From a virus: 64,000 bases of DNA. The stretch is taken from IMG/VR virus record IMGVR_UViG_3300045988_079139, positions 4,378 to 68,377 of that record; one strand, given 5' to 3'. The notes under the pieces were generated by a model. That model was not told the DNA's origin. It was given only the letters and a program-made list of their open reading frames with translations, and did no database searches. The position numbers and the translations under genes are program-made. Below, one piece after another: positions 1,089 to 56,701 of the stretch. Each line of letters opens with the position of its first letter. Positions within the stretch are counted from its first letter, which is position 1.

Positions 1089-2297
1089 ATGATTGAAAAA
1101 AGTTATATTCAATACTTAGATTATAAACCGTCAGTTGCATATTCTTTTTTCGCGTAGCGTCAGAATGCTTTATTGTTGGCAAATACTAAATCTGCTTTTG
1201 ATAGCAATGAAGCGCGTCTAAATCAGATTATTAGTAATGCTCAATAGGGATTAAATAAATTAACTAATAATATTGTGACTGAAGAAAATTTAGCAAACGC
1301 AATCTCTAAAGGAATGGAAGCTAGTGCTGCTTTATCTGGAGACTTAGAAAAAATGGCAGGGTCAATAAGTGGATATTTTAGTGAAGCAAATTCAAAAGCA
1401 GCTCAATTAAGAAATTTGTATGAAACCGGATACACAGATTTTGAAAGCATTGTTAGTTCAGTTTTGAAAAGTGGTAGAGTTACAATCAATCATGGTGAAT
1501 TGACACAAATTTTAAGCAATCTTCATCCAGATTAGATTGAAACCGCTTTTAGAGATGTAGCTAACCCGCTTGGTTGGATAGGTGAATTAAGTGGTTTGCC
1601 TCTTTTATCTAATATCGCAGATTAGTTATTAGAAACTTCGTTTAAGGGTATGCCTGGAGTTACTGTGGAAATTGTAAATACTGGTGCTCTTTACACAGAC
1701 AAAGGTTCTCGTTTAACCACTGATAATTTATTAATATTTAGACAAGGAAATCAAGTTTTATATTAGTTAAATCTTTCTAATAAATTAAATACTGTTTATC
1801 AAGATAAATCTAAAAATACTAAACGTGCAATTAAATTAAGAACTACAACAGTAAATTCTTTTTTATCTGGCCATGAAGACTGGGCTGAGCACGTTTATAA
1901 TATTATTAGTTATCACTGGGACACTTCTAAAGATATGCGAGTAGATTATTTAACTGGAGAGGGTAATATCGCAAGACAGAGTTTGGGGTTATAGATTTTA
2001 TATGACCATATTTATGGCACTAAAGAAAACTTTTTAGTTGGTGATGATATATTTAAGGATGAAGTTCAGTTGATAGCTTATGGTACAAAAATTATTGCCA
2101 GCAATAGTGTATTAAGACACGCTTTATTTACTAAAGCCATGAATGATAAGAAAAAATTTACAATGATTACCATTGATAGAAAGTCTTGGTTTCATAATGA
2201 AGATGAATAGGGAAAGACCTATATTCAAAATGAATATGATGCTCAAAGAAGAATTGCTGCCTTTGGTTTGATTTATAAACAAACTTTACAAATTTGA
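1089..2297 (+). CDS. Hypothetical tail-module protein (402 aa), read through 7 in-frame TAG codons
   Basis: ATG at 1089 is preceded by gagagaaaggag. The frame stays open to TGA at 2295-2297 except for TAG codons at 1155, 1245, 1533, 1623, 1764, 1992 and 2208. The ORF track shows only the 1275-1535 fragment. Confidence 0.55.
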
Positions 2298-2322
2298 CAA
2301 ATCAGAAAATTTCTGGTATAAT
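2294..2322 (+). promoter_or_regulatory. Consensus sigma-A-type promoter (TTGACA-17 nt-TATAAT)
   Basis: TTGACA at 2294-2299, a 17-nt spacer and TATAAT at 2317-2322, placed 36 nt upstream of the ATG at 2358. Confidence 0.7.
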
Positions 2323-2357
2323 ATAAATATAAAATGAGATAAAGGAGGAATTTAGCT

Positions 2358-2897
2358 ATGGCTAAAGTACCATTTTCAAAATTGCAGGCTAAAGTTGATA
2401 GTAAAGTAACTCAAAATTGCTATTGTAATTTAGCTGGCGAAGAAGTACATTATGAGGTAAAGCATTACTTACCTTTTGTAGAAAAACTCGACCTAGTTTC
2501 TCGTATCATCAATAATTCTATTGATGATAATGGTTTTTACAATCCAATGCGAGTAAAAATGTATATGGTTCTTGAAGTAACTTTCGCATATACTAATCTA
2601 AGTTTCACTGAAAAAATGAAGGAAGACCCTTTTAAACTATACGACATTTTAGTAAGTACTAGTATTTTTACCGATATTGTAAATGCTATCTGTGAAAAAG
2701 ATTGGACTGAAATTCAAGCAGATGTCTGGTCTACAATTGATAATATTTACAATTATAGAAATTCCGTGATGGGAATTCTAGAAACTATTACTGCCGATTA
2801 TAGTAATTTAAATCTTGATGCCAGTGAAATCCAAAAGAAATTGGCTGATCCAGATAATATGGATTTTTTGCGAGATGTTTTAAGTAAATTGGGCTAA
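2358..2897 (+). CDS. Putative tail assembly chaperone (179 aa), independently transcribed and TAG-free
   Basis: AAAGGAGG RBS, its own consensus promoter upstream and a strong terminator downstream. The chaperone call rests only on its position between the major tail protein and the tape measure. Confidence 0.45.
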   Translation: MAKVPFSKLQAKVDSKVTQNCYCNLAGEEVHYEVKHYLPFVEKLDLVSRIINNSIDDNGFYNPMRVKMYMVLEVTFAYTNLSFTEKMKEDPFKLYDILVSTSIFTDIVNAICEKDWTEIQADVWSTIDNIYNYRNSVMGILETITADYSNLNLDASEIQKKLADPDNMDFLRDVLSKLG

Positions 2898-2943
2898 TTA
2901 AATTAGTTTATTTATTAAGACTTTTACATTTTAATAGGAATGG

Positions 2944-2990
2944 ACGGCGGCTGGATAAAAACATTCCAGCCGCCGTTATTTTTATTTTTG
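2944..2990 (+). terminator. Rho-independent terminator
   Basis: acggcggctgg / ccagccgccgt 11-bp stem followed by ttatttttatttttg. Confidence 0.8.
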
Positions 2991-3026
2991 CAAAAATAAA
3001 AAATTGGAGAGAAAGGAGTATTTTAA

Positions 3027-6000
3027 GTGGCAAAACAATTAAATGTTAATTTAGCATTTAATGCTGATACTAGCAAGGTAAAAGCGTAGTTGTAGGAATT
3101 ATAGAATCATTTAAATAATTTAACTAACACAACAGCGGCTTAGTTGCCTATTACTAAAGAGGTCCAAGAGGCTCAATAGGCAACTATTCATTTGAAAACT
3201 GCCTTGCAGCAAGCAGTAAATGTAAATACTGGTAAATTTGACCTATCTAAGTTCAATTAGTCCATTAAGACTTCTGGAACTTCTCTAGAGCAAATTCGAA
3301 ATCGTTTGGTTCAAATTGGGCCTAGTGGATAGTAGGCTTTTGCATCGTTGGCACAATCAATTGCTTCAGCAGAAATCCCTGCTCGTAGAACCAGTGCTTT
3401 ATTAAGTGAGCTAGGAACCACTTTAAAAAATACTGTTAAATGGCAATTTTCTTCTAGTATGTTGCATGGTTTTATGGGCGCAGTTCAAAGTGCTTATGGA
3501 TATGCTCAAGATTTAAATAAATCTTTAAATGATATTCGAATTGTAACTGGATTGAGTGCTGATGAGATGGATAAATTTGCTATTAAGGCTAATAAGGCAG
3601 CAAAAGCTTTGAGCGCATCTACATTAGAATATACTAATGCAGCATTAATTTATTATCAACAGGGTTTAGATTCTAAGGCTGTTGAGGAACGAACAAATGT
3701 AACAATTAAAATGGCAAATGTTACTGGAGAAGTCGCTTCTGACGTATCTAATTATATGACAGCAGTCTGGAATAATTTTGCCAAAGGCGGCGAAACATTA
3801 GAGTATTATGCTGATGTTATGACTGCTTTAGGTGCTGCTACAGCTTCAAGTACAGATGAAATTGCAGCTGGATTGGAGAAATTCGCTTCTGTCGCAGATA
3901 CAGTAGGATTAAGCTATGAATATGCAACTGCTGCATTGGCAACTGTTACTGCCACAACTCGTCAAAGTGCTGATGTTGTAGGTACTGCTTTTAAAACCTT
4001 ATTTGCACGTATCCAAGATTTGGAGCTAGGAGAAACTTTAGATGATGGTACCACTCTTGGCAGTTATTCATAGGCTTTGCAAAAAGTTGGTATTAATATT
4101 AAAGATACTTCCGGTCAATTGAAAGATATGGATATTATCCTAGAAGAAATGGCTGCTAAATGGGAAACTCTTGGAAAAGCCGAGAGAACTGCCTTAGCGC
4201 AATCTGTTGCTGGTGTTCGTCAATATACTCAATTGATTGCTTTAATGGATAATTGGGATTTTATGGAATCCAACCTTGGAGTTGCGAATTCTGCTGAAGG
4301 TACTCTTCAAGAACAAGCAGATATTTATGCTGAAAGCTGGGAAGGTGCTCGAGATAGAGTAAAAGCCGCCGCTGAAGCAATTTATAGTGATTTGCTAAAT
4401 GATGATTTCTTTATCGATTTAACAAACGGTTTAGAAAAAGTATTGACATTATTTGACCATTTCTTAGATGCTATTGGAGGAGCTAAAGGTTTAATCTTTG
4501 GTTTATCTAGTATTTTATTAAATACTTTTAGCGCTTAGGCGGCTAAAGGTTTAGAAAATATGGTTTATAATTTAAAGAGCTTTGTAGGTTTAACGCAAAA
4601 AGAAGCCATTGCAACAAAAGCAGAAGCAAATCGATTAATGGCAGAAAAAGTGCCATCTGCAGGCCCTAGTGTTTTAAACACTTTCACTTCTGATGCTAGC
4701 ACAACAGGAATGTAGACATAGTTTGAATTGACGTCTCAAGTTGCTATGTTGAAAGAAAAGATGACAGAGCATCAACAAATGGAAGCACAAGCTATTTTAA
4801 GTTAGAACAAAGCTTATGCTGATTAGTTAGTGGTGTTGGGACAAAAGGCTGATGCTTTAAAAAGTGAGAAAGAAAGCGCCAGATCAAATTTATTAGATGA
4901 CGCTGCTTTTGAGTTGGGTACCGTTCGTGCTCAAGAAGCTTTGTCTCAAATTGATGCAGATATTATGAATGGCGAAAGCATTGTAGCTGAAATTGAATAG
5001 GTTGAACAGGCTTTTAAAAAAGGAACTGTAACTCTTGAAGATTATAAAGCTAAAATGGGAGAGCTAGGAAAGAAAGCTAAATCTTAGGGCTTAGAAGAAA
5101 CTGCAAGTATTATTGCGAAAGTTTCTGGCCGTACTGCAAGTGGAAAACCTCAAGATTTAGATATGGCAGGAATGGCTCGTACTGCCGCAACGAAAGATAC
5201 TCGCAAGCGAGCTAGAAAAGCTTTAACAGATAAGGGAGCAAAAAGTCCTGCTGTTGATGATAAAACAATTGATAAATATATCACAAAAACAAAAGAAGCT
5301 GCAAAAGCAGATAAAAAATTTGCTGATGGTAAAAAAGAGTTAGAGAGAAATACTGCTGAATCATCTAAAGCAATTAAGAATTTAACTAATACAACACAGC
5401 AAGTTTCACAAACCATTGTTAAGACTGCTTAGGCTACAATGTCTTTAGCTTATGGTATTAATGCTTTAAGTCAGCTAGGTGATATTTGGTCTGATGATAC
5501 GCTTTCTGGCGGACAAAAGTTCTTACAAACATTAATGTCTCTTGGTACAGCTATTCCAATGTTAATGAATGGTTTAACAGGAATGAATGCAGTATTAGGA
5601 GTTACTAGTGTTTTAGAACAAAAAGCAGCTATTGCATCTCAACTATATCTTGCGGCTCATAGTAAAAAGTTAGCTGTATTAACAGCAGAGCAACAAGCAG
5701 AATTAGCTGCAAATATGTCTAAAGCAACGGGCTTAACTTTAGATTAGGCAAAAGTTCAAGTAAGCAATGCAGTCGCTGCAGCTAAATTACAAGAGGCGGC
5801 CGCCTCTGGAGCGCTAACTGCTGCATCTACCGCAGAACAAATTGCTGGGCTAGCAGGAATTTCTATGGACTAGGCTGAAATCATTTCTAAAAAGCTTGCT
5901 GCAGGTGCAACAATAGAAGAGGCTATGGCTGAGGCTGGATTGACAGCTACTAAAACTGGCGGTATTGCTGCATCAGTAATGCAAATTTATACCAAAGGTT

Positions 6001-9000
6001 TAGAAAGTGGTGCACGATGGGCTAATGTAGTGGCAATGATTGCAGAGCAAACTGCGATGTCTCCACTGCTGATTATGACATTGCTTTTAGTTGCTGCAAT
6101 GGCAGCATTAGCTGCAGTAATAGCAATTGTAGTTACAGCTGTCAACGCAATTGTAAGCGCGTATAATGCTGATTCAATAGCAGCTGAAAAAGCAGAAGCA
6201 GCAGCAAAAGAATTGGCAAAAGCATATAATGAAGCAAAAGCCAGTTATGAAGAAATGGTTGCTGCGATGGAAGAATATCAAAGCGCACGAGATGCTTTGG
6301 ATTCTTTAACAAAAGGAACTGAAGAATATTCTCAAGCTTTAAAAGAAGCTAACCGTCAAGCTTTAGATTTAATTAATACATATGATAAATATTTAACTTC
6401 TGATGATTATAAATGGGATAATGGTCAATTGGTTATTGATGATGCTGCTTTAGAAAGAGCTAAGCAAATGGCAAGTCAAGATCTTGATACTGCATATGCA
6501 GCAAGCTCTATGGGCGCAGCCAATGCCAAAGAAATGCGAGCCGTATCTGATCAAACTAATTTAAAACGTAGTTATTACGATGGTAATATTGGTACCGCAG
6601 CACTTCAAGCAATGGGAAGTTCACTTGCTTCAACATTAATCCCAGGACTTGGCACTCTATTGGCCCCCGTACTAGCGACTGCTTCGCTTGCAACGTATGC
6701 AGCAAAGCAAGGTGAGGAATAGGCTTATGGCAAGGGCGTTGACGCTGCCATGAAGTTATATCGAGAAGGCAATAAGAATATTTTTGATTCTTAGGAAAAT
6801 TTATCAACCGCTTTAAGCGAAGTCGGTATTACCAACACTGATTTAATTACAGCATTGTGGGAAAATAAAGACGCTTTGCAAGAGCTGGGTAGCAAATTTG
6901 ATGCGGCTGAAATGGCTGGAAGAGCTGCTGCTCAAGAAAATGCTCGTGCCTTTATCGAAAATTCTTCTTATAGCAATTCAAAATATGCTGATGAAATGAC
7001 TCATATGGTTGGCAATAAGTATTATGAGCGTCAACAAGAAGTGGAAGCTCAGATGTCTGAATTGGTAAAAACCAAGGGTGGATTAAAAGCAGCTGCTAAT
7101 TCTTATTTCGCTAATAGTGGCATTGCTGATCAGTCAGGATTTAAAGTTGAAAAATACGATAAGAAAAATGGCGTTGTAAAATATAGCTACATTGGTGAAG
7201 ATGGAAAACGAGAAGAAAAAGAGGTAACAGCAGAATTTATTGCATAGATGGAAGCTGCTACCAAAGTGCAATCTGAATTAACAGAAAGTTGTAAAATTGT
7301 TAGCGATTCTTTTAGTGCTTTAGATGGACAGCTTGGTTCAACTAATGAAGCGTTAAATGAAGGCATGAAAGCCTTTTTAACAACTGGTGATATTAGTAAT
7401 TTAACTAAAGATTAGTATGATGAAATCGCCAATTTATCTGATGAAGATTTATTAAAATATTTAAATAATATCGGAATTAATGAAGATACTGTAAAGTCTT
7501 TTGGATATGATAATATGTCAGATTTTACAGATAGTATGAATGTTGATGGAGTAGGAGAGACTTGGGACAAGTACCAAAATATTACTGCCCATCAAGGAAC
7601 AGAAGATTTAACATTAAATCAAGCAGAGAATATTAGTAATGCTCTGGAGGGTATTGCAGAGTTCTTCGGTGAAGAAGTCGGACATGAGATGCTAGATTTA
7701 TCTGCGTTAATGGCTGATTCTTTAGATGAAGCCGCTCAAGACGATTTCTGGGAGCAACTGGGTAATATCTCTGATTATACCGATGCTGATCAATGGGATG
7801 CATTCTTAGAAGCCATGAAAGATTCTGAAGATATGACAGATGAATAGATTCAAGCTTTAGAAGAATATGTTGATACAGCTAAATTGGCAGCAAAAGCAAC
7901 TAAAGATTTAGATTTTGATGCTATGGCTGAAAGCGTAAAGAGTTTACGCGATATTATGCAAAGTATTTCTGATGGAAATAGAGAGATTACTGATGAAGAA
8001 TTTGCTGCTCTTGAAGCTCAAGGAATTGACACTTCTAAATTTGCAAAAACCATTGATGGTTATCGTTATCTTGGTGATAGTGCAGATTTAGTTGCAGATA
8101 TCTCTGAAGGTATTACTAAGCAATTTAAAGAAGCAGAAATGAATTTCTCTAATATCGCTGCAACTGCTGCTCAAGCTAGTTAGAATTTAATTGATGCTGA
8201 AGCTGCACTTGATGCTGCTCGTATAGCTGGCGATCAAGCAAGAGCATCTGCAGAAGCTGGCGCTACTAATCAATTAACTAATACTGAGAAATTAAGTGTT
8301 ATCATGTCACAAATTGTAAACAATGTTGTATCAAAGATTAAGGCAGCATGGGAATGGATTTGTGGAATCATGATGGATATTTATGATTTCTTTGCTAATA
8401 TTTTTAATAAAATTGGATAGGGTATTACTGATATTTGGAATGGCTTCTTAGAAATTATTGAAAATATTATTAATGGCGTAGTTGGAAAAGTTGTCGAACT
8501 ATTAGAAGAAATTCCTGGTGTTGATATTGATTGGGAAGATATTTCATTTGAAAAAGCTAATTTTGAAGGTGTAAAAACAACAGAAGAAATTGAAGCGGAA
8601 GAAAATGCTAGAAAAGCAGAAGAAGATTTAATAGCTTCTACTCAAGCATTGGCTGATGCTATACCTGATATGGTAGCTAGTATTGAATCTAGTGCTGATT
8701 ATCTTTCTGAAGCAGAACTTGAAGCTGGTCGTGTTGAAGCAGAATAGAATTATAATACTGCGCAATCTCAATATGATGCAGCTGTTGCAACATATGGTAA
8801 AGATTCTACTCAAGCTAAATATTATGAACAATTAGTGGCATATTATGAAGCTCAAATGGACGCTTATGCTAAGGCTTTGGATTCAAAAGCTTGGGGCGAG
8901 GTAATTGCAGAGGGCATTGATACCAAAGAGATGGAAGCTTATATTGATCTTCTGGAGCAAGCGCATCCAGAAATGCGTAAATTATATGAAACTACAGAAG

Positions 9001-12000
9001 ATTATGAAAATGCATTGCTGCAAGTCGCTACTGCCAATAAAAAAATGGAAAAGGGTGTTAAATCCTTAGCTTCTAACTGGGACAAATGGAATGATATTAT
9101 GGGTGATAGCGAAGCTTCAGCTTCAGATATTGCTACAATTTTACCAGAGGTTAATGATGCCGTACAAGATGTTTTAAATCTTGATACTAGTGAGTTCGCC
9201 ATGTTACCTCCTGATTTTGCTCGAAAGCATTGGGATTTAATTCAAGACGTTGTTAAGGGCGTAGAAGGATCTGTAGATAAATTGCGTAATGTAGCAGGCC
9301 AAGAAATTTTAATGCAAATTGATGGCGTGCTAGATGCCGATGGAAATCTTGACGCTCAATTTATGGCCTTACATGAAAAAATTGCTCAATACGATCAATC
9401 TCAATTTACTGTTGGAGTTGCTATTGATCCACAAGCAAATGCAGATTTTATTGCAGCTTGTAATGATATTATTCAAAAAGCTGGTATGACTGCAGAATAG
9501 GCTTAGGCTTATTTCGCATCCATGGGTTACGATATCAAGTTAAAGCCTGTTAAGCAAAAGATTACTGAAACACAATGGAATCACATTTATAAAAATGTTT
9601 ATGACGCCAAAGGAAATCTGTCTGGTAGAGTAATTTAGAAAGCTTGGCCTTCTACATTTACTGGTGAAGTTGATGCTTTGGCCATTGAGACTATTACTCC
9701 AAATGGCTCTTATGGTGGTGGTATTGGAGTAGAGACAACTCCTCCAAAATCTTCTACATCTGCCGCTGATTCATCAGGCGGTAATAATGATGAGCCAGAA
9801 GCAGCAGAAGAAGAAGAAGTTTCTAAAAAGTCTGATATTGTCGATAGATATCATACAGTTAATCGACAATTGGAGGATATGACTAAGGCGATGGAAAAAG
9901 CTTCCAAAGCCGCAGATAAATTATGGAGTCGTAAAAGATTACAGTATTTAAAAGATTAGAATGAATTATTAGATCAAGAAATAGGGTTACTGGAAACAAA
10001 GAAGCAAGAAGCAGAAGACTATCTTCGAGATGAAGATATTCCTAATTTAACTTAGGCTATGGCAGATGCCGGCTTTAATGCTACTTTTGATGATAATGGT
10101 GAAATTACAAATTATAGAAGCGTTATGGACACTTTGGCAGATTAGCTAATTGCCGCGCAAAATCAGCGTAATACGCTAGCTACAAAAGACGATCAAGATG
10201 CTTATACTAAAACTGTTATTGAACCTTTAGAGAAAAAGATTGAAGAATTGCAGGCTGCAATTGAAATGTATGAAGCAACATTAGATACTATTGAAGAAGT
10301 AGATACTGAAATTCAAGATCGAGTAGACCAGAAACTTGCTAATAATTATGAAGCTTGGAGCTTAGAGCTTGAATTAGACATTGCAATCAATGAAAGAGAT
10401 TTGGAATTATTAGATTATTACTTATCTAAAATTGAAGACGATGTTTATTCTATGGCTGAAGCCGCAGCTTATATGATTGGTTCTTTAGAAGGACTAGCTT
10501 CTGGAGAATTCGGTGGTCAATTAGGCATATACTTAAACAGCTTATCAACTTATAGTTCAGCCCTAGATGATTTAAATACAAAATTAGCTGCTGGAGAAAT
10601 TACTGAAGCAGCCTATGAAGAAGGTCTAGAAGAAATTCGTTCTGGTTTAATGGATAATTTATCTTCATTAAATGAATTGGACGATGCCATGTTAAATTAT
10701 TATGGTGATACTCTATCTATGGTTACAGAAGAAATTGATAAATATACTGAAAAAATGGAACATCAATCTTCTGTTCTGGAACACTATAGTAATATGATGG
10801 AAATCTTAGGTAAGTCTCAAGATTATGAATCAATGGGTACTATTTTGCAAGGTCAAGCTGATGTATTAGCAGACCAAGTTGATGTTGCAAAAGCTGAATA
10901 TGATTTATATGCACAAGAAGCTGCTAATAAGCGTAAATTATATGAAGATGCTATTGCGGCTGGTGACCAGGCAGCAGCAGAAGTCTACAAGAAAGAATGG
11001 GAAGCTGCTGATGAAGCCGCCATGGAAGCTCAATCTAATATGCTAGATAAGACTGAAGAGTGGGCAGAATCCATGAAGTCAGTTGTTGAAAATAAGTTGG
11101 CAGGTTTAGCGCAATCCTTGGAAAGTGCTTTAACGGGTGGAACTTCATTCGATGAATTAACCACTTCTTTGGAGCGTGCGGCAAGCTTACAAGAAGAATA
11201 TCTAACTACTACAAATTAGATTTATGAAACTAATAAATTAATGCGTACTGCACAGCAAGAAATTGATAAAACTACAAATACTGTTGCAAAATAGCGTTTG
11301 AAAGATTTTATTAAAGAAACTGACCAGTTGCAAGATAAGTCTAAATTAAGTCAATATGAGTTAGAAATTCAACAAGCTAAATATGATTTGCTTCTGGCTG
11401 AAATCGCTTTAGAAGAGGCTTAGAGTGCTAAATCTACTGTCCGTTTGCAGCGTGACGCTGAAGGTAATTTCGGTTATGTATATACTGCAGACCAAGACCA
11501 ATTAGCTAATGCTCAGCAAGAATTAGAGAATGCTCAAAATAGTCTATATAATATTGGTTTAGAGGGCGCCAATGAGTACACTGAAAAATACTCTCAAACC
11601 ATGCAAGAAATGTATGATACATTAACCTCAATCCAAGAGGCTTGGTTGAATGGTGAAATTGCTACTCAAGAAGAATATGATAGACAAATGTTGGCGGCTC
11701 AAGAATATTATTATCAGTAGTTAGAAGATTATTCTAGCTTATATAGTGTTGCCATTTCCACAGACAGTCGCGTTGTAAAAGATGCTTGGAGCACTGGTTT
11801 TAACTCAATGATGAGTAAAACCAACGAATGGAAAGACAAAGTCAATCAATATAGCGCCGAAGCTCGTGAGACTTTAGTCAATTGGTATGCTAAGGTTGAT
11901 GAAATCGCTAATAAGACTGGTTTAGATAATATTGCTTCTAAGGTAAAGGCCGTTACTGACGAATCTAAGGCTTTGAAAGATGCTGTTATTGGCGAAGATG

Positions 12001-28043: not shown

Positions 28044-28060
28044 GAAGGAGGATAAAGATA

Positions 28061-40272: not shown

Positions 40273-40297
40273 TATTTAAGAAGGAGGGCTGTAATTT

Positions 40298-40981: not shown

Positions 40982-40990
40982 TTTTTATAT

Positions 40991-41028
40991 GGGTGGAATG
41001 ATTTAATCGTTCCACCCATTTTTTTATT
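40991..41028 (+). terminator. Rho-independent terminator
   Basis: gggtggaatgatttaatcgttccaccc hairpin followed by atttttttatt. Confidence 0.8.
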
Positions 41029-41051
41029 ATATATAGATTGGAGGGATAAAA

Positions 41052-47674: not shown

Positions 47675-50146
47675 ATGAGTTTAATGGCTTGGTATCCTCT
47701 GGATGGTAATACTAGAAATCAAGGGGTTGGTAATCTAACCCCTAGTATTTCAGGTACTCTTACTTATGCAGCTGGAAAAATTGGGGCAAAAAGTCTAAGT
47801 GGTGGAGGATTAACTTGGACTGCCGATTAGACAGCTTCAGTTTTAAATAATAAAGAATTTTCTATTGCCTTTTGGATTAAACCAGTTGGAACTACTTCAG
47901 GTCCGATTTTTGGTAATACCGGCATGGGAGCATCAAACAATAGAAAATTTTGTATTTACGCTTATCCTACTGTTAATGACTTACATTGGAGCTGGATGAA
48001 TGATGCAGCGGAGGTTGTTTATGCAGGAGGGTCAATCAATGGCAGTTTACCCTCTAATAAATGGACTCATGTTTGTATCACATATAAAAATCCTCAAGGA
48101 TATGTATATATTAATGGAGTTTAGAAATCTTCATTTAGTGGAGAAAGTAAATCTTCATCTTTTAAATATGCAACAACAGTATTGCATAATAATACTAGTC
48201 GTTATATTAATGATTTGCGTATTTATAATCATGCCTTGTCTGTTAGAGAAGTCCAATAGGTAAGTCAAGGATTGATATTACACTTACCTCTTAAAGATTA
48301 GGATCTTGAGAGCACTACGAATTTGGCTCCATATCCAACGCCAGGAGCGGCTTATACGCCAGGTTGGGTAACAAATTTACATCCTGATGCAATTTCTGTA
48401 AGTAGTTGGTCTTCTGGATATAATGGCGGAGTTGGAACCCCACAAGCTGGTTATCATGCATATTGGAAAATGATGGATGGTATTCCGACGATGGTGTTTT
48501 AGCATTTAAATTCTCAATTAGGTCTAGGAAATCGTTGGCTAGGAATAAGCTGTGGAGATTTTCAAGGTAAAATTGGACCCTCAAAAACTTATACTATTTC
48601 TTTTAATGCAAAATCTAGCGTTGACGGAGTAGTGATATCTACAGGTTATTATTATCGAACAACAGGAAGCACTTCAAATAATTTTCATGATGGATGTCCA
48701 AGTACAGCCTTAACAACCTCATGGAAAAGATATAGTTTTACTTTTACAACTTTAAATACTTTAGATACTTCTGTTAATGCCTCTATGTATATTTATGGAC
48801 ATAATGGTTCTGTTAATGGCATTGCCTATGTTCGTAATATTCAAGTTGAGCTAAAAGATCATGCGACTTCTTATACACCAACTACTAGAACTGCTAGCAG
48901 TGTTATGGATTGTTCTGGTTATTAGCACCATGGCACAATGGTTGGAACGGTAGTACCAAAAAATGATAGCGCTCGATATGATACTTGTATTTACCAAGGT
49001 GATGGCGTAAATAATTATCTAAAGAGTGGAGCAATTACAATGCCAACTGATAGTGTTACTATGAGTTGTTGGTTTAAAAGTTCAACCACAGGATATAACG
49101 GTTATCACATTCCAATGGCAGTAAATTCTAGTTCTTATGAACTAAGTATTGATTCATCCGGCCATTTTAGAAATGGCTTTGTAATTGGTGGAACTCGTTA
49201 GGTATTAACCACTTCACATACTTCAATTCTTGACGGCAAATGGCATATGATTACTGCTACATATGATGGTGCAACTATTAGACGCTACTTAGACGGTAAA
49301 GAATTAACATCATATGCTACTTCTGCAACTGGAACTTTATCTGGAGTTACTTCTGAGTTGCTTGTAGGTAGTTATGGTAGTGGAGGCTATGGTAATAAAA
49401 ATGCTTATATGAGTGATATTCGTATTTATGCTACGGCTTTAAGTGCGGCCGCAATTAAAACTTTATATGAGTCTAGAGCATCTCTAAATTCCACAGGTAC
49501 TTTAATGACTTATGAATTTATTGAAGATGGTTCAGCAAATATTAAAATGACCAGTGAGGGCTTAATTCGTGCAGGAGTAGTAAGCGAAACACAAACTGCT
49601 TTTGGTATGCCTATAAAGGTTTTAAGTGATGGAAGTGCTTGGGCACGAATTCACTGGATTGATGTTACTGGAGTAAATTCATGGTTTGCTAATGCGACAG
49701 AAGTGGATGAATGTATAGATAAATCTAATCGATTTAGTCGTATGGGTTCAGTTGAAAAATTCATTGGATCTGATGGATATTACGAATTTATGTTAACCTA
49801 TCCTCGATTATCTAAAACAAACTTTAACCGCTGGAAGCAGACAAGCTCTCCAAAAGCAAGTACAGTTACTGGTTTTACACCTATTACGACAGCTTGGTCT
49901 GCTCATAATGGTGGTATTAGAAAACACGGAAGCTCTTGTTTATATAATTGTGATACTGGTTCAACATGGTTTGCTCCAATAGGCCAATATGGAAAATGGA
50001 CTGAAACTCAATATATACCTGCGGCTGACGGAAGTTCTTAGACTGAAACTGAATTATGGGTAAGAATTGATACCTTACCTTCTTTAAATAAAATTAGTAT
50101 GTTTGATAATAAATTTATTCAAGCATTGAATATACATGAAATATGA
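47675..50146 (+). CDS. LamG two-domain receptor-binding-type protein 2 (823 aa, about 8 TAG)
   Basis: AGGAGG RBS. The N-terminus MSLMAWYPLDGN is paralogous to 41725. The 47924, 48632, 48938 and 49247 fragments are co-frame, ending at TGA 50144. LamG motifs are INDLRIYNHALSVREV and MSDIRIYATALSAAAIKTLYESRAS. Confidence 0.6.
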
Positions 50147-50166: not shown

Positions 50167-53100
50167 ATGGCACAACTAAATGATTTACTGGTATTGGGTA
50201 AATCTAATTTATTGGGCGATACTAGTATTTTTGGAGCCTTTAATATTAATGGTAATGTTGCTATCGACGGCACTTTAACTGTTGAAGATGCTACTTCATT
50301 AAAGAGTTCCTTGACAGTTGCTGGATCTTCTACGATTGGCGGAGCCACCACAATTGGTGGAGCTACTACAATTGGTGGCGTCTTAACCGCGTAGGATAAT
50401 ATTAAAGTTTCAAGTAATAAAACAATTATTCAAGCTCAAAGTTCTGGTAGTAACTACACTACAGTTATTAGATGGGATTGGGCGGATAAAGGTTCATTTA
50501 GCTACTATCCGCAAATTGGTCATCATAGTAATGGAGACACTACTGGCGCTATTGTTTTATTGCCATATGCCACTAATGCCAAGCCCTGGGATGCAAATGA
50601 TGGTTTATATATATCTGCGTCTAGATTAAGATGGAATAATTTAATTGCGGCTGATAATAGTAGAAATTTTTATCCTACTCAAAATGGCACTGGTTCCATT
50701 GGTACTTCAAGCTACTATTGGAATAATGGTTATTTAAATAACTTAACTATTAAAACAGCTTTAACTTTAAATGGAACAACATATTTAAATGGTAACTTAG
50801 TTTGGAAGCCAAGTGTTAATATTACTTGTACACCAACTGCTGCGAATCAAGAATTCTCAATTGACGTTGGTAGCAGTTCTTTTACAGGGTCTTATTTCCA
50901 TATTTGGTCTGCAGTTAAATCTACTTCGATTTTAAGTTGTTATCCAGATGATTTATCTGTGAAGATGGGCGGCGCTGTCACTATCGCAGGAGCCATCACA
51001 GCTAATAGTACAGCTTTAATTAAAGGCTCAACTGAAATTCAAAATAATGTTAAAATTACTAATGGTAACTTAACTATTCATAGAGACTCAACAAAGGCTG
51101 CAAATACACCAGCTAAAATTATTTTTTCTAACAAACAAACCGATGGTAATATTACAACAAATTCTGCCTGTATTGCTGCTTATGATGATCATGATGCCTC
51201 AAGTTATGGTCAAAATTTAGTTATTTAGGGTTGTTCTAATGTTGTTGTAGGTGCAGGTGAAAGTGCTACCAGTTTTTATGAAGCAGTTTTAAAAGATAGT
51301 TCATCAGAAGGTTTATATCTAACTTCTGATGGTAGTATTTATTTCTATCCTAAATGTGACACTGTTGCTAATAGAGTTGGAGTAATTCTTGATACTTCAA
51401 GACAGTTTTATCCCGACTCAAATAACACTGGTTCTTTAGGTGTAAGTTCTTACCGCTGGGCAAATGCATACATTGGTAATTTAAATGCTTCAGGAACTGG
51501 TACAATTTCTGGCAATACTTCTATTGGAGGCACATTAAGTGTAAGTAGCACTTTAACAGTTGGTAGTACCACATTATTAAAAAATACCTTAACTGTTCAA
51601 GGCAATATTTATATTAATCAAACTGCAGGTACAGGTACTGGCCTAGCTTTGTACGGAACAAGTGCACCTGCAACATATGGAGTTTATTTTGCTCAAACTG
51701 CTAATTTTAGTAAGCATGGCGACGTTCAAGGAGATTGGGCAACTTACTTTGGAATGAATGCCGTTGGTACAAGAGGTTGGATTTTCCGTCCTGGTACAAC
51801 AAATGTGGCAAGTATTTCCGCAAATGGTGTAGCATCTTTTTCTGCTATCGGTGATGGTGTTGCTTATTTAGCATTCCCCAAGGGCGGCACTCTAACTATT
51901 GGCTCTAGTGGCCAAAAAGGATATTTAACTATTGTAATGCCAGCAGGATTTAACTCCACAATGGTTAAATTCAAGGTATCTGTTTATAATTATTCAACCG
52001 GCACTTCTGTTGACTATATTATCGGAGGTTATTGTTATTCTTCTGATAATAAATGGTATAATCCAACTGCATATTGTATTGGTCCTAGAGGTAGCGGATT
52101 AGCAAACTTAACTGTTAATTACGGTATGTCTGGAAGTAATCCAGCAATTCAGATTGGTGCGGCAGACACAACTTGGGAATATCCAAATATCGCAATTTCT
52201 GATGTTTATTTAGGTCATAGCCGTAATTATTCTAATTGGTCTAAGTCATGGACCGTAAGTATTACCACAACTGCTATTACTTCTATCACACAAACTATAT
52301 CCAATACTTATATGGCCAACTTTAGCGGTACAAATAATAAAGTTGCTAAATTCTCTAATAGTGGTCTTAATATTACTAATAGTAATATTACTGATGATGG
52401 CTCCACTGTTACTATTGGTTCTAAACTTGTTGTTTAGGGTAATGGTAGTTCATATAATGAAGGTATTCGTATTTTACCAGCTTCAAATGGTTGGTCAAAT
52501 ATCTTCTTCTCCGCTGACTCCAGCGTTTAGGGAACTCATGATGGTGGATGGCTGATCGGACGACGCGGTGCCGTAGGTTCAACCGCAGGAGCTATTGGTG
52601 ACTTCACTATTGAAGAACAAGATTCTTCTGGCGTTAACCTCACTATTCACAAAGATGGTAATGGCGCAACGTTAATGGGTAGTTTACGCATTAATAAACC
52701 GATCATTTATAGCACAGAAGCTTCCGGTACTCGTATTCTGTATGGATCTACTCGTAATTCAGGTATGAAATATGACTATAGTGGCAATGAAAGTTTCATG
52801 ATTTCTGCTGGTACTTATGCATCTGCATCAATTCTACTATTGACCGGTGGACAATTAAATATGAATGATAGTAATGGTCAATGGAATGCTAGTACAACTG
52901 TTCCAGCAATGTCTCTGCGTAAGTCAGGTGTTGCAGTTAATTATAACTTAACTTCTGACCCAACTCATAATTTTTATGTTAAGGGTACTTCAAAATTTGA
53001 TGGTGTTGTTTTTGGTTATAATTATATTAATTCAAGTAACGCTGCAGCTTTTATGTGGGACAAGAATGGAACTAACTACACAGGCGTTGGTTCTTGTGGC

Positions 53101-54189
53101 GTAGCTGATACAATTCTTTTTGCTCCTTGTAGCGCAGACGGAGCTTGGGTAAGTAGTTATGAACAGATTTGGAGATTCCAAGGATCTATTGAATTCCCTC
53201 AAAACTCTGCTCGCGTAAGAGGAAATACTGCTACTGATTATACTCCTGTTTACATAAGTGGTGAGAAAAACACTTATGGCGGTATCGCTTTTTAGAATGG
53301 ATTGCATGTCATGTCTAGTGCAGATCACCATGGTTTTTGGGACGGTACATGGATCCTTTATCGAAACACTTCTCATGGAGCTATTAGTATTGGTACCGCT
53401 CAAACCACTGCTAACGGATATGCAATTACTCTTGCGGGAAGTACTTATATTAATGGTAATACATCCATTAATGGAACTTTAACTATGAGCAACGCTATTC
53501 AACTACAAGTTGATGGTGGTAACTGGTATAATCCTATTAAGAATTTAACACATAGTGGACTATATTATGATGCGTCAAGTTCTAATACTTCTACCTACTG
53601 GAGTTTAATTGCTTTAAAATTCCCTAACCAAACTTACTCTTTAGGTGGCGAGCGCTCCGGAAATACCTTCGGTATTTATAGTTACAATAACAGTAGAACA
53701 GATAACGGATACGATGGAGCTCTTTACGTTCATGGTGGCAACCACTACTTCTATTGTACTACTAGACTATATGGCGCTGTATGGAATGACTATGCGGAAT
53801 TCCGTACTCAAGAGCAAGAAGTAGCCCCAGGCTATTGTGTCGCTTCTAGAGATAATGGCAAAATTCATAAAACCCATAAGAGACTATAGGCTTGTGACGG
53901 TATTGTCTCTGATACTTATGGTTTCTCCATTGGTGAAAATGAAGAAAATAAAACGCCTCTTGCTGTTGCAGGTCGTGTACTTGCATACTGCGAAGGAGAT
54001 AAAAACGATTATCGTGCTGGTGATACTGTTTGCGCAAGCGAAAATGGTAAAGTCTGCAAGATGACTCGTGAAGAAATTCAAATGTGGCCTGACCGAATTG
54101 TTGGTACAGTTTCTGAAATTCCTGATTATGAAATTTGGGGAACTGGAAAGGTTAAAGTTAATGGTCGTATTTGGATTAAAGTAAAATAA
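50167..54189 (+). CDS. Tail fibre B (1,340 aa, about 8 TAG), paralogous to fibre A at the N-terminus and at an internal segment
   Basis: RBS gagagaaaggag. The N-terminus is MAQLNDLLVLGKSNLLG. The 50560, 51649, 52675 and 53302 fragments are co-frame. The segment DGSIYFYPKCDTVANRVGVILDTSRQFYPDSNNTGSLG matches fibre A. A TAG at 53887 precedes the last 100 aa, and the gene ends at TAA 54187. Confidence 0.65.
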
Positions 54190-54396: not shown

Positions 54397-54834
54397 ATGT
54401 ATTCCAACTATAATTATTATCCACAGCAAACCCAATAGCAAGTCAGACCAGTTATGACTCAATCACCCTATCAAACTTATATGCAACCTGGCCAATTACC
54501 TATGAGTTTAAAAGGTAGATTAGTTTCATCGCTGGAGGAAGCTCGTGCATCTTCCATTGACTTCGATGGTTCTGTATTCTACTTCCCCGATTTAGCAAAC
54601 AAACGAATCTATACAAAACAAATAAATATTGATGGCACTGCGTCACTGTATGTGTATGAATTAAGGGAAATGCCCGTTTAGAAAGAAGAGAGCAGCTTTG
54701 TTCCATCAGTTGAGAAATTTGTTACAAGAGAAGAGTTTGAGCGGGTCTTGGAGTATATTAAAACACTCCAAAAGCCAACCGAGCCGGCCGCATCCGCACC
54801 AGCTAAAGAAAAAGTAGAATTACTATCATTCTAA
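54397..54834 (+). CDS. Hypothetical protein (145 aa, 2 TAG) with a Gln/Tyr/Pro-rich N-terminus
   Basis: GGAGG RBS. The N-terminus reads YYPQQTQ(TAG)QVRPVMTQSPYQTYMQPGQ. The 54454 fragment is co-frame. Confidence 0.5.
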
Positions 54835-54844
54835 GGAGGTATGA

Positions 54845-55099
54845 ATGATGTATCCAGTAGACCCTAAAATGTTAATCCAAATGATTAGACAAGGGCAAAA
54901 CCCTCAGCAATTAATGATTTCAATTTTGCAAGGACAAGCCTACAATAATCCCCTCGGAAAAAATCTCCTAAATTTAGCACAGTCAGGTCGCACCGACGAA
55001 CTAGAGAAAGTAGTTCGCAATCTATACACCCAATAGGGAGGTAAGAATTTTGACCAAGACTTTGAAGCCTTTAAACGTGCAATAGGCTACAATACTTAA
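54845..55099 (+). CDS. Small hypothetical protein (84 aa if the TAG at 55034 is read through, 63 aa otherwise)
   Basis: AAGGAGG RBS, then a downstream TAA at 55097. Confidence 0.4.
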
Positions 55100-55119
55100 A
55101 TTTTAAGGAGGACAAAATT

Positions 55120-55827
55120 ATGTTTAATGGAAATGGTTATTCTTTGGCAGATGTCGCTGCCGCAACTCGTGGCACAGAAGATGGTTTCTTCGGTGGAGCA
55201 AATGGATGGTGGATTATCCTACTGTTTATGTTCTGCGGCTGGGGTAATGGCGGATGGGGTGGCAACCGCACTGGCACTGAGAATGTGCGCGATGCTGTCG
55301 CATATGGTTTCGACATCAATAATTTGGAGAATGGCGTTCGTGGTTTAGAACATGGCATTTGCGATGGTTTCTATGATATGAACACTTCTCTGCTAACTGG
55401 TTTCGGCAATGTTGCAATGGGCAATATGCAGAATACCAATGCTCTTATGGGTCGTTTGTCTGATATGGCTGCACAGAGTGCTGCCTGCTGCTGTGAGACT
55501 CAGCATCTAATTGAGAGAGGATTGTGTGAAGTTAATTATAATATCCTAACTCAATCTAACGCAACAAATACTAATATTGCGTCTGCCGCACGTGATATTA
55601 TTGAAAGCAACAATAACGGCGTTCGTTCCATCCTAGACTTCTTGACTCAGGACAAGATTGCTACTTTGCAGGCTGAAAATCAGGCTTTGCGCTTGACCGC
55701 TTCTCAGCAGGCTCAGAATGCTTTCTTAATCGACCAGCTAGGAACTAAAGCACCCGTTCCCGCATATGTAGTAGCTAATCCTTATGCTTCTGGATATTAT
55801 GCTGGCTGTGGATGCAGTAACATCTAA
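55120..55827 (+). CDS. Membrane-anchored Gly/Trp- and Cys-rich protein (235 aa), TAG-free, with host-like codon usage
   Basis: AAGGAGG RBS. It has one predicted TM helix (WWIILLFMFCGW) flanked by GG(A)NGW and GWGNGGWGG, then CCC and CGC cysteine clusters and a Gln/Asn-rich coiled-coil-like C-terminus. Gln is encoded almost entirely by CAG. Confidence 0.65.
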   Translation: MFNGNGYSLADVAAATRGTEDGFFGGANGWWIILLFMFCGWGNGGWGGNRTGTENVRDAVAYGFDINNLENGVRGLEHGICDGFYDMNTSLLTGFGNVAMGNMQNTNALMGRLSDMAAQSAACCCETQHLIERGLCEVNYNILTQSNATNTNIASAARDIIESNNNGVRSILDFLTQDKIATLQAENQALRLTASQQAQNAFLIDQLGTKAPVPAYVVANPYASGYYAGCGCSNI

Positions 55828-55840
55828 GGAGGAATGATAT

Positions 55841-56263
55841 ATGGAAATTATTGCTAATGCTGTTCAAACTGTTGCGGCAAATCAAAATGTTTATTTCACA
55901 GATTCCGTAACTTCTGGAAATTATTCAATTGAGCATCGTGACGGAAGTGGTTTAGTTACTCTTCGTGGTGTTACTGCTACTCAATGTCGTGCTCGTTTTA
56001 GAATTCATTTCGGAGCTAATATTGCCATTCCTACTGGAGGAACCGTAGAAGCAATTTCACTTGCAATTGCACTTGATGGTGAAGCAATCCCCTCAACAAT
56101 TATGACTATCACCCCAGCCGCAGTTGAAAATTATTTTAATGTAAGTGCATCAATTTTTATAGATATTCCAAAAGGTTGTTGCTCTCATGTAAGCATTCAG
56201 AATATTTCAACTTAGCCTGTATTAGTGCAAAATGCTAATTTAATTGCGGAGCGCTCTGCATAA
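55841..56263 (+). CDS. Hypothetical beta-rich protein (140 aa, 1 TAG)
   Basis: GGAGG RBS, TAG at 56213, TAA at 56261. A faint resemblance to the BclA C-terminal / C1q-like fold is speculative. Confidence 0.45.
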
Positions 56264-56275
56264 AGGAGGAGTAAT

Positions 56276-56701
56276 ATGAGTCACATAAAATTGATGTGGA
56301 TGGAGGAGCAGCTGATTGCAGAAGCTGAAAAACAATTTGAATGTTTGGAAAAAGTCTGCACAAAAGAACTTGGCGAAGTTATTGATATGATAAAAGATTT
56401 GAAAGAAGCTATTTATTATGAAACAGTGACTAAAGCCATGGAAGCTGGTGACTCTTATAAAACAGAAAAAAGCGACCATCTTCATGGAGAAGACGGCCGC
56501 CAAGAAAGTCGTAGCTATAGATATATAGAAGCACGAGAAATGAAAAAAGATAAAGCAACACAGTTGCGCGAATTAGAAAAGTATATTCAGGAAATGAGCT
56601 AGGAAATCATTGATATGATTAGTGATGCTTCAGTTGAAGAGAAAGCTTATTTGGAAAAGAAACTTACTGCTCTTGGAGTAAAAATTGGACAAATGAAATA
56701 A
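56276..56701 (+). CDS. Hypothetical coiled-coil protein (141 aa, 1 TAG)
   Basis: AAGGAGG RBS, TAG at 56600, TAA at 56699. Confidence 0.45.

What the first reader, a model, noticed from the sequence alone, without database searches (positions are those of the whole stretch)
1089..56701. Amber (TAG) is a sense codon across the late/structural module
Across about 50 kb, every large structural gene is split in the ORF track into same-frame pieces separated only by TAG. I traced each gap codon by codon for the TMP (about 41 TAG in 3,270 codons), the 2,061-aa post-TMP protein, both LamG proteins, both fibres and the baseplate genes. Not one TAA or TGA interrupts them, and every gene ends at TAA or TGA. 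Translating TAG as Gln gives natural sequence in context, for example TMP N-terminus KVKA-Q-L-Q-EL-Q-NHL, EVQEAQ-Q-ATIHLKTALQQA and GPSG-QQ-AFASLAQSIA, or YYPQQTQ-Q-QVRP in the 54397 gene. Phages with amber reassignment (code-15-like, TAG=Gln) are known from gut metagenomes, but each lineage's mechanism is poorly characterised. Here it coexists with a Firmicutes-style SD/sigma-A architecture.
Basis: partly seen in the sequence, partly recalled or inferred. Interest (0 to 1): 0.9.

Follow-up and report, generated by a model that had tools for sequence, protein, structure and literature searches.

The report
Phage reads amber stop as glutamine
This 64-kb piece of a large gut phage uses the stop codon TAG as a codon for glutamine in most tail and baseplate genes; this is a real example of an alternative code already described in gut phages, and no suppressor tRNA could be found in it or in its close relatives.

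Summary
If TAG is read through, the window resolves into 34 tightly packed genes, each preceded by an AAAGGAG-type ribosome-binding site. Coding density rises from 79% in 85 fragments to 96.5% in 37 genes. There are 116 in-frame TAG codons and no in-frame TAA or TGA. All 34 genes end in TAA or TGA.

TAG means glutamine. Among relatives at least 92% identical, all 9 TAG polymorphisms are TAG<->CAG. A likelihood test over 42 aligned TAG positions puts Gln 34 nats ahead of Glu.

- TAG use is gene-specific, not module-wide. The tube gene, genes 26568-31157 and the 2,229-aa gene are TAG-free or nearly so. Their homologues are TAG-free in distant relatives too.
- Two minus-strand genes carry TAG: guanylate kinase has 3 and g26 has 1.
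- TAG replaces CAG specifically.

The phage is an SPbeta/Schiekvirus-like siphophage related to the published TAG-recoded phAss-1 group. It is therefore a new member of a known kind.

One question stays open. No tRNA of any kind was found in the window or in 92.9 kb retrieved from the closest 171.6-kb relative, whereas phAss-1 has three suppressor tRNAs.

The parts
73..1011 (+). g01, tail tube protein (YomU_Tube), 312 aa. 0 TAG; Gln codons 1 CAA / 8 CAG.
   Evidence: (precomputed Pfam PF27173). Homologues in L020, L025, L026 and L246 have 0-1 TAG.
1089..2297 (+). g02, 402 aa, function unknown. 7 TAG.
   Evidence: It shows 4 TAG<->CAG polymorphisms against L001.
2358..2897 (+). g03, 179 aa (YomO-like in L001). 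0 TAG.
3027..12836 (+). g04, tape measure protein, 3,269 aa. 41 TAG (129 CAA, 21 CAG); 8 of the TAG lie in the first 103 codons.
   Evidence: PhageMin_Tail on the L001 homologue.
12957..19142 (+). g05, 2,061-aa post-TMP protein. 13 TAG.
19169..19537 (+). g06, 122 aa. 1 TAG, aligned to CAA in L014.
19603..25111 (+). g07 (884 aa, 5 TAG) and g08 (958 aa, 8 TAG), baseplate-region proteins.
25127..26511 (+). g09 (114 aa, 1 TAG) and g10 (347 aa, 4 TAG).
26568..31157 (+). g11-g13 (491, 455 and 569 aa), a TAG-free block: 27 CAA, 13 CAG, 0 TAG.
   Evidence: The L014 ORFs at the positions of the g11 and g12 homologues, and the next ORF downstream, also have 0 TAG. A terminator follows at 31227-31261.
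31294..37983 (+). g14, 2,229 aa with an LRR_5 domain. Only 2 TAG, against 29 CAG.
   Evidence: binomial p = 6e-4 against the pooled rate.
38308..41711 (+). g15 (654 aa, 1 TAG), g16 (227 aa, 0 TAG) and g17 (219 aa, 0 TAG).
41725..44532 (+). g18, LamG/CBM_4_9 protein, 935 aa. 6 TAG.
44982..47663 (+). g19, fibre-like protein, 893 aa. 5 TAG.
47675..50146 (+). g20, LamG/CBM_4_9 protein, 823 aa. 8 TAG.
50167..54189 (+). g21, fibre-like protein, 1,340 aa. 6 TAG.
54397..56701 (+). g22 (145 aa, 2 TAG), g23 (235 aa, 0 TAG, 10 CAG), g24 (140 aa, 1 TAG) and g25 (141 aa, 1 TAG).
   Evidence: The g24 TAG aligns to CAG and the tail after it is conserved.
56755..57225 (-). g26, 156 aa. 1 TAG, aligned to CAA in a 90%-identical relative.
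57291..62110 (-). g27 RuvC, g28 dUTPase, g29 (function unknown), g30 NrdG-like radical SAM protein and g31 NrdD (by tblastn to annotated NrdD). All have 0 TAG.
62196..62765 (-). g32, guanylate kinase, 189 aa. 3 TAG, at codons 20, 42 and 60.
   Evidence: Pfam 1.8e-16. The TAG fall inside the conserved domain at variable polar positions. They are CAG in L005/L006.
62744..63998 (-). g33 (79-82 aa, Cys-rich) and g34 (C-terminal 340 aa of a 1,321-aa DNA polymerase III alpha). Both have 0 TAG.

Best explanation
The window is the tail, baseplate and fibre region, plus the start of the nucleotide-metabolism and replication region, of a large gut siphophage. The phage is probably 170-200 kb and SPbeta/Schiekvirus-like. 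In it, TAG is translated as glutamine (NCBI table 15).

Shown here:
- TAG is a sense codon and is never a terminator.
- It stands for Gln.
- It has replaced CAG specifically. In TAG-bearing genes TAG outnumbers CAG about 2-8 to 1, while CAA is unaffected.
- Its use is gene-specific, and the pattern is conserved between lineages. TAG is heavy in the TMP, baseplate, LamG and fibre genes. It is absent from the tube gene and from g11-g13 here, from the capsid and scaffold genes of relatives, and from most replication and nucleotide-metabolism genes.

Inferred:
- Some trans-acting factor that is not encoded in the window must decode TAG efficiently late in infection, because 41 TAG in an essential 3,269-codon TMP cannot tolerate leaky readthrough.
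- The genes that avoid TAG are those that must be made early or in the largest amounts. This would mean TAG decoding is delayed, limiting, or both, which fits the published idea that recoding gates late-gene translation.
- The decoder is either a tRNA(CUA) charged by host GlnRS and encoded in an unsampled part of the genome, or a host-derived route. No tRNA gene was detectable in this lineage, so the identity of the decoder is unresolved.
For: - ORF structure, SD sequences and stop usage.
- Gln identity: TAG<->CAG in 9 of 9 polymorphisms; likelihood test and reciprocal test; conserved contexts; guanylate kinase TAG positions lie inside the domain.
- Gene-specific usage: Fisher p = 6e-8 for g11-g14 against the other + strand genes, and p = 2e-4 for the - strand genes.
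- Conservation of the pattern in the lineages represented by L014, L020, L025, L026 and L246.
- Lineage: YomU/YomV/YomW/YonB/YonD Pfam hits on neighbouring genes; tblastn to Enterococcus EF1/VRE9, Lactococcus 949-like phages and phAss-1.
- Precedent: phAss-1 is published as TAG->Gln with three tRNA-Sup-CTA (PMC10607447). Borges et al. describe late-gene recoding in gut phages of Firmicutes (10.1101/2021.08.26.457843).
Against: - No suppressor tRNA was found. ARAGORN and Rfam find no tRNA in the window.
- None lies in the position syntenic with phAss-1's two suppressors, next to NrdD, in 46 relatives.
- None lies in the 92.9 kb retrieved from the closest 171.6-kb relative. None appears in two further 10-kb extensions of the early region, taken from two other relatives.
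- Intron-tolerant and relaxed ARAGORN settings gave nothing credible.
- The early/late gating idea is imperfect. Guanylate kinase, in the nucleotide-metabolism block, has 3 TAG, and an ORF in the replication/nucleotide-metabolism region of a relative has 9.
- The 5' enrichment of TAG is weak (OR 1.7, p about 0.06), and the +4 context does not differ from CAA/CAG.
- There are no protein-level data.
Confidence: 0.88

Rival explanations
1. TAG is decoded without any phage-encoded tRNA. The phage would reprogramme host translation, for example by neutralising RF1 so that host tRNA-Gln(CUG) reads UAG by first-position wobble. Alternatively it would rely on a suppressor tRNA supplied by the host or by a co-resident element. 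This rivals only the 'how' of the best explanation, not TAG = Gln.
For: - No tRNA of any kind was found in the loci of this lineage anchored on portal, PolIII-alpha, GyrA and RecA-like genes.
- None was found in the retrieved parts of the closest 171.6-kb relative.
- The syntenic suppressor site of phAss-1 is empty.
- Relatives carry tRNA-related enzymes without any tRNA gene: a Thg1-like protein, a YqeY-domain protein and an RNA ligase.
- Borges et al. detected suppressor tRNAs in only 40% of TAG-recoded genomes.
Against: - Part of the relative's genome was never seen: contig positions 1-23,694 of the closest relative. The roughly 20 kb of the corresponding region that I did examine came from two other relatives and could not be joined to it. 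The rest of the window's own genome is not available.
- Unusual tRNAs can escape ARAGORN and Rfam.
- Near-cognate reading is not known to be efficient enough for 41 TAG in one gene.
- No candidate RF1 inhibitor was identified.
Confidence: 0.3
2. TAG encodes an amino acid other than Gln (Glu, Lys, Tyr, Trp, Leu, Ser or pyrrolysine), or an ambiguous mixture.
For: - At many aligned positions relatives have E, K, N, D or S.
- One of phAss-1's suppressor tRNAs is 91 nt long, which is unlike a tRNA-Gln.
- The phAss-1 paper reports similarity of one of its Sup-CTA tRNAs to a Dehalobacter tRNA.
Against: - Gln wins the likelihood test by 34-71 nats.
- All 9 polymorphisms among close relatives are TAG<->CAG. 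None goes to TGG, TAT/TAC, AAG, GAG, TTG or TCG.
- The spread of E, K, N and D is what variable surface Gln positions show.
Confidence: 0.04
3. The phage simply shares the code of a host that itself reads TAG as Gln, so nothing phage-specific is needed.
For: - No decoding machinery was found in the phage.
- Some recoded phages, those using code 25, do match their hosts.
Against: - If TAG were an ordinary host codon there would be no reason for conserved TAG avoidance in early genes and in the most abundant virion genes.
- Published host predictions for TAG-recoded gut phages are standard-code Firmicutes and Bacteroidetes.
- To my knowledge no bacterium with TAG = Gln is known.
Confidence: 0.05
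4. TAG is still a stop. On this view the fragments are pseudogenes, assembly errors, or low-efficiency programmed readthrough.
For: None beyond the formal possibility.
Against: - There are 116 TAG but no TAA or TGA in frame.
- The same TAG positions are conserved in independent assemblies from different samples.
- No gene uses TAG as its final stop.
- Sequence after each TAG is conserved.
- Essential genes carry up to 41 TAG.
Confidence: 0.01

Closest known systems
phAss-1 / proposed Phassvirus group (OQ749652; Babkin et al. 2023, PMC10607447)
   Same: - Human-gut siphophage with TAG->Gln recoding in many structural genes.
- TMP longer than 3,100 aa.
- The same gene families: tube (42.5% aa identity), NrdD (46%), NrdG, RuvC and PolIII-alpha.
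- A rightward late module facing a leftward nucleotide-metabolism/replication module.
   Different: - phAss-1 is 136 kb at 44.5% GC, with 36 tRNAs including three Sup-CTA, two of them directly upstream of NrdD.
- The window is 35.8% GC. Its close relatives are about 170-200 kb, and no tRNA was found in the sampled parts of this lineage.
- Protein identities of 30-50% place it outside that genus.
- The same paper mentions divergent low-GC TAG-recoded relatives (BK048656, BK032759, BK051641). I could not fetch them for comparison.
TAG-recoded gut phage clades of Borges et al. (Jade, Sapphire, Agate, Garnet, Amethyst, Topaz, Lak, crAss-like; 10.1101/2021.08.26.457843)
   Same: - Code 15 with a predicted standard-code Firmicutes host.
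- Recoding concentrated in structural genes and variable in replication genes.
- Suppressor tRNA undetectable in 60% of TAG-recoded genomes.
- Genome size close to Jade and Sapphire (about 200 kb).
   Different: - Clade membership is defined by TerL phylogeny and was not tested.
- Here the most abundant virion proteins are TAG-free. The one endolysin-like gene seen in a relative is also TAG-free and lies in the leftward module.
Standard-code relatives: Enterococcus Schiekvirus-like phages (EF1, VRE9), Lactococcus 949-like phages, Bacillus SPbeta
   Same: Homologous tube (30-40% aa identity), TMP and baseplate proteins (tube; EF1), and the SPbeta Yom/Yon Pfam families.
   Different: They use TAG as a stop (8 of 35 genes in the EF1 module) and have no in-frame TAG.

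Membership tests
Code-15 (TAG->Gln) recoded phages | In-frame TAG, and only TAG, interrupts conserved genes. | tested here: met
   116 in-frame TAG, 0 TAA and 0 TGA in 20,310 codons. Coding density rises from 79% to 96.5%.
Code-15 (TAG->Gln) recoded phages | TAG positions align with Gln in homologues. | tested here: met
   All 9 polymorphisms are TAG<->CAG. Gln is the maximum-likelihood residue by 34-71 nats.
Code-15 (TAG->Gln) recoded phages | TAG is not used as a terminator. | tested here: met
   0 of 34 stops are TAG, against 8 of 35 in the standard-code relative EF1.
Code-15 (TAG->Gln) recoded phages | A phage-encoded suppressor tRNA with a CUA anticodon. This is frequent but not universal. 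| tested here: inconclusive
   None was found in the window. None was found in 414 related loci except in phAss-1. About 24 kb of the closest relative, and the rest of the window's own genome, were not seen.
Code-15 (TAG->Gln) recoded phages | Phage-encoded RF2 or GlnRS. This is an occasional accessory. | tested here: not met
   Pfam scans of 20 window proteins gave no RF or aaRS hit. A further 9 had only PHROGs scans or Pfam hits precomputed on homologues, which also showed none. The rest (g05, g19, g21, g29, g31) were not usefully scanned. Relatives' loci were not scanned systematically.
Code-15 (TAG->Gln) recoded phages | The host uses the standard code. | not testable with these tools
   The host is unknown. 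Relatives sit in MAG bins with inconsistent taxonomy.
Phassvirus genus (phAss-1) | At least about 70% genome nucleotide identity and shared synteny, including the suppressor tRNAs next to NrdD. | tested here: not met
   blastn of window 56700-64000 found no phAss-1 match. Protein identity is 30-50%. No tRNA lies next to NrdD.
SPbeta/Schiekvirus-like large siphophages | Yom/Yon structural protein families and a giant TMP. | tested here: met
   YomU_Tube on g01, with YomV, YomW, YonB, YonD and YomO on neighbouring genes. The TMP is 3,269 aa.
Borges gemstone clades (Jade/Sapphire/Agate) | Placement in the TerL phylogeny. | not tested

The most novel reading that the evidence does not exclude
A whole lineage of 170-200-kb SPbeta-like gut phages translates TAG as glutamine without encoding any tRNA. 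That would imply an undescribed way of rewriting the host's code. Candidates are inhibition of RF1 combined with host tRNA-Gln(CUG) reading UAG, or recruitment or remodelling of a host tRNA by the tRNA-related enzymes seen in relatives (a YqeY-domain protein, a Thg1-like protein and an RNA ligase). Conserved avoidance of TAG in the most abundant virion proteins would then reflect the limited capacity of that route.
Probability: 0.2. Interest if true: 0.8.

Novelty: new member of a known kind. Interest (0 to 1): 0.35.

Why it matters
- Practical: this contig, and hundreds of related IMG/VR, ENA and MAG contigs, are mis-annotated under table 11. Here that produces 85 fragments instead of 37 genes. 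Several relatives are binned into bacterial MAGs.
- Biological, pattern of use: the lineage gives a clean data set on how a reassigned codon spreads. TAG replaces CAG only. It becomes the major Gln codon in some genes (75 TAG against 57 CAA and 5 CAG in one relative's TMP). It is kept out of the same abundant or early genes in lineages only about 55% identical.
- Biological, mechanism: because no tRNA gene could be found, this is a candidate system for working out how the roughly 60% of TAG-recoded phages without a detectable suppressor decode amber.

Tried and rejected
- 5' clustering of TAG as an early translational gate: weak (OR 1.7, p about 0.06; without the TMP, p = 0.19-0.26).
- Special nucleotide context after TAG: no difference from CAA/CAG (chi-square p = 0.32).
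- Recent horizontal acquisition as the reason the g11-g14 block is TAG-free: unlikely. The L014 ORFs at the positions of the g11 and g12 homologues, and the ORF after them, are also TAG-free in a lineage only about 55% identical.
- Search for the suppressor tRNA:
  - I used all 8 IMG/VR scans, the single genome scan, the single metagenome scan, all 3 protein searches and 11 of 12 contig look-ups.
  - These walked about 71 kb leftward-module-upstream and 21 kb around the portal in the closest relative, plus 20 kb in two other relatives.
  - No tRNA was found.
  - The metagenome scan was wasted on a mobile HNH-like gene.
- ARAGORN with introns allowed and with relaxed thresholds gave only noise inside coding regions.
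- PHROGs and Pfam gave almost no functional names for the structural proteins.
- GenBank records of the low-GC recoded relatives (BK048656) are not in the accessible collection.
- Host identification from MAG bins was rejected as unreliable. Bins range from Bacteroidales to Mollicutes to Clostridia, which points to mis-binned phage contigs.


Full report
**1. Observation**

The window is 64 kb at 35.8% GC. Under the standard code it breaks into many same-frame fragments. With TAG read through, the + strand from 73 to 56701 becomes 25 contiguous genes and the - strand from 56755 to 63998 becomes 9. Nearly all are preceded by an AAAGGAG-type Shine-Dalgarno sequence.

In the 34 genes there are 116 in-frame TAG among 20,310 codons. 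There is no in-frame TAA or TGA, although TAA and TGA are common in the other two frames. All 34 genes end in TAA (27) or TGA (7). In the homologous module of the standard-code relative Enterococcus phage EF1, 8 of 35 genes end in TAG. Zero of 34 therefore has p about 1.5e-4.

A simple greedy gene call covers 78.8% of the window in 85 pieces under table 11. With TAG as sense it covers 96.5% in 37 genes. Treating TGA or TAA as sense gives no such gain.

**2. Which amino acid**

Three lines of evidence point to glutamine.

(a) Close relatives recovered from public assemblies are 92-99% nt-identical (L001, L004, L005, L006). They share 13 TAG positions with the window. Every difference that involves TAG, 9 of 9, is TAG<->CAG. 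This includes all three TAG of the guanylate kinase gene and one CAG->TAG change in NrdD. TAG has two other single-transition neighbours, TAA and TGG, and six transversion neighbours. None of them was seen.

(b) I collected tblastn columns against 27 more distant loci: the IMG/VR lineages L014 and L017, 20 MAG-binned relatives, phAss-1, EF1 and the closer L001. In reasonably conserved contexts, TAG positions align mostly with CAA (33), TAG (29) and CAG (8). An empirical substitution-profile likelihood puts Gln 71 nats ahead of Glu using all observations. With one observation per position (42 positions) the margin is 34 nats. Reciprocally, TAG codons of the relatives lie opposite Gln in the window proteins in 71 of 237 cases, against a background Gln frequency of 3.5%.

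(c) TAG codons near the 3' ends of g24, g25 and g26 are followed by sequence that is conserved in relatives of about 46-90% identity. These TAG align to CAG or CAA, so they are not terminators.

The three TAG of the guanylate kinase lie inside the Pfam and PDB-aligned domain, at variable polar positions.

**3.

TAG is not uniform across the late module.
- The tube gene g01, g03, g11-g13 (1,515 codons), g16, g17 and g23 have none.
- The 2,229-aa LRR protein g14 has 2, and g15 has 1.
- On the - strand, NrdD, NrdG, dUTPase, RuvC and the DNA polymerase III alpha fragment have none. Guanylate kinase has 3 and g26 has 1.

The g11-g14 block differs from the other + strand genes with Fisher p = 6e-8. 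The - strand genes differ with p = 2e-4.

TAG replaces CAG rather than CAA. Gln codon counts (CAA / CAG / TAG) are:

| Gene | CAA | CAG | TAG |
|---|---|---|---|
| TMP (g04) | 129 | 21 | 41 |
| g20 | 13 | 1 | 8 |
| g01 | 1 | 8 | 0 |
| g23 | 1 | 10 | 0 |
| g14 | 44 | 29 | 2 |
| NrdD (g31) | 14 | 20 | 0 |

The pattern is conserved. In lineages whose baseplate protein is only about 55% identical, or whose tube is 60-70% identical, the tube homologues have 0-1 TAG and are CAG-rich. So do the capsid (YonB) and scaffold genes of the lineages in which those were retrieved. In L014, the ORFs at the positions of the g11 and g12 homologues, and the next ORF downstream, have none. Homologues of the TMP and g02 are heavily recoded. 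One TMP has 75 TAG against 57 CAA and 5 CAG.

This argues for selection against TAG in proteins made early or in the highest copy number. It argues against recent import of TAG-free genes.

TAG is only weakly enriched near 5' ends, and its downstream nucleotide context is unremarkable.

Strong intrinsic terminators at 31227-31261, 40989-41019 and 44862-44894 divide the late region. They do not separate g10 from the TAG-free g11-g13.

**4. What the phage is**

Precomputed Pfam hits on the tube gene and its neighbours are the SPbeta structural families YomU, YomV, YomW, YonB, YonD and YomO. tblastn of the tube protein finds these relatives:
- Enterococcus EF1/VRE9, about 40% identity
- Lactococcus 949-like, Brevibacillus, Bacillus and Clostridium phages, about 30-35%
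- phAss-1, 42.5%

phAss-1 is a 136-kb human-gut phage published as using TAG->Gln with three tRNA-Sup-CTA and a 3,149-aa TMP (PMC10607447). Nothing in the GenBank phage collection is close at the DNA level.

The window is 100% identical over its first 11 kb to an ENA gut-metagenome contig. IMG/VR and ENA hold many relatives on contigs of 139-204 kb. Several are binned into MAGs of inconsistent taxonomy, so these give no reliable host. The SD and promoter style, and the relatives, point to a Bacillota host.

**5. Mechanism**

Reassignment in a standard-code host needs a UAG decoder. In phAss-1, two of the three suppressor tRNAs lie immediately upstream of NrdD, and 32 further tRNAs lie in a region about 40 kb away.

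In the window ARAGORN and Rfam find no tRNA at all. The GMK-NrdD junction is only about 85 nt.

I walked through relatives, anchoring on these genes:
- the baseplate protein
- PolIII-alpha, 46 loci
- a RecA-like gene
- GyrA, 46 loci
- PhoH
- NAMPT
- an early gene
- the portal, 80 loci
- two further steps through protein look-ups

In the closest IMG/VR relative, I retrieved positions 23,694-45,166 and 99,305-170,774. This relative is 171,580 bp, with PolIII-alpha 92% and portal 96% identical (the portal measured against L001's). Neither ARAGORN nor Rfam finds a tRNA there. The stretch from 45 to 99 kb corresponds to the window.

Two other relatives add about 20 kb of the remaining early region, again without a tRNA. 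Intron-tolerant and relaxed searches give only noise. Across 414 loci (about 6.7 Mb), CUA-anticodon tRNAs were found only in phAss-1.

A stretch of that relative remains unseen, and so does the rest of the window's own genome. Absence is therefore not proven.

Relatives do encode a Thg1-like enzyme (2e-28), a YqeY-domain protein (at the Pfam threshold) and an RNA ligase. These are leads, not evidence.

Borges et al. report that only 40% of TAG-recoded genomes have a detectable suppressor. A 2026 survey of jumbo phages reports about 61% among those using alternative codes. The gap is therefore a known problem rather than a new one.

**6. Verdict**

The observation and the Gln interpretation are both right. 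The 'module-wide' description should be replaced by gene-specific, conserved use of TAG in place of CAG.

The phenomenon and the broader phage group are already published, so this is a new member of a known kind. Its residual interest lies in two things: the apparent lack of any tRNA gene in the lineage, and the clean codon-usage pattern.

Noticed in passing
window 73-1011 versus 3027-12836; L001: The tube protein is 100% aa-identical in three different contigs (L001, L002, L003). In L001 the adjacent TMP is only 31-36% identical. This is a sharp mosaic boundary between neighbouring tail genes.
   Followed up: partly
window 31227-31261, 38248-38271, 40989-41019, 44862-44894: Strong terminator-like hairpins (10-16 bp stems) cut the + strand late region into several transcription units; the three on the + strand are followed by T runs, and the hairpin at 38248-38271 was called on the - strand. 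No convincing sigma-70 promoter excess was seen.
   Followed up: no
window 3027-12836: The tape measure protein is 3,269 aa. At the usual roughly 0.15 nm per residue this implies a tail of about 490 nm, which is my inference. Eight of its 41 TAG fall in the first 103 codons.
   Followed up: partly
window 58316-58836 (- strand): A 520-nt gap lies between dUTPase and g29. It contains a possible ORF of about 100 aa (58566-58940) that carries 2 TAG and overlaps the end of g29. This was not resolved.
   Followed up: no
L158 7591-8109 and 1175-2593; L240 7046-7936 and 8399-9319: Close relatives encode a YqeY-domain protein, an RNA ligase, a Thg1-like tRNA-His guanylyltransferase and a sigma-70 factor. 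No tRNA gene was found anywhere in them.
   Followed up: partly
L153 1-5400; L158 3300-11100: Relatives carry a large NAD-related gene set: NAMPT, NadE, an NMN adenylyltransferase-like gene, PRPP synthetase, nicotinamidase, Sir2, a macro domain and NADAR. They also carry a major-vault-protein-like 838-aa gene and a flotillin.
   Followed up: no
L010 12442-12532 (phAss-1): One of phAss-1's three CUA-anticodon tRNAs is 91 nt long, suggesting a long variable arm. The other two are 75-77 nt. The three suppressors may not all be tRNA-Gln-like, as the paper assumes.
   Followed up: no
L089 5926-6918: A 330-aa ORF in a relative's replication/nucleotide-metabolism region (between NAD-dependent ligase and ThyA) carries 9 TAG. 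It has a coiled-coil N-terminus and a GIY-YIG-like C-terminus by eye. This does not fit a simple 'early genes use the standard code' rule.
   Followed up: no
L106 3137-5470 and 5633-6379: A 777-aa multi-domain cell-wall hydrolase (M15 peptidase, lysozyme, amidase and SH3 domains) and two small membrane proteins lie in the leftward module of a relative. All have 0 TAG, unlike the recoded lysis genes reported for other recoded phages.
   Followed up: no
IMGVR_UViG_3300032167_000002 (L048/L053, L247/L250): This 402-kb IMG/VR contig contains two different related genomes whose portal genes lie about 203.7 kb apart. It is probably a concatenated or chimeric assembly.
   Followed up: no
L019-L038: Phage contigs of this clade (up to 175 kb) are binned into MAGs labelled Bacteroidales, Mollicutes, Gastranaerophilaceae, Clostridia and others. 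This is probably mis-binning and would contaminate those MAGs.
   Followed up: no
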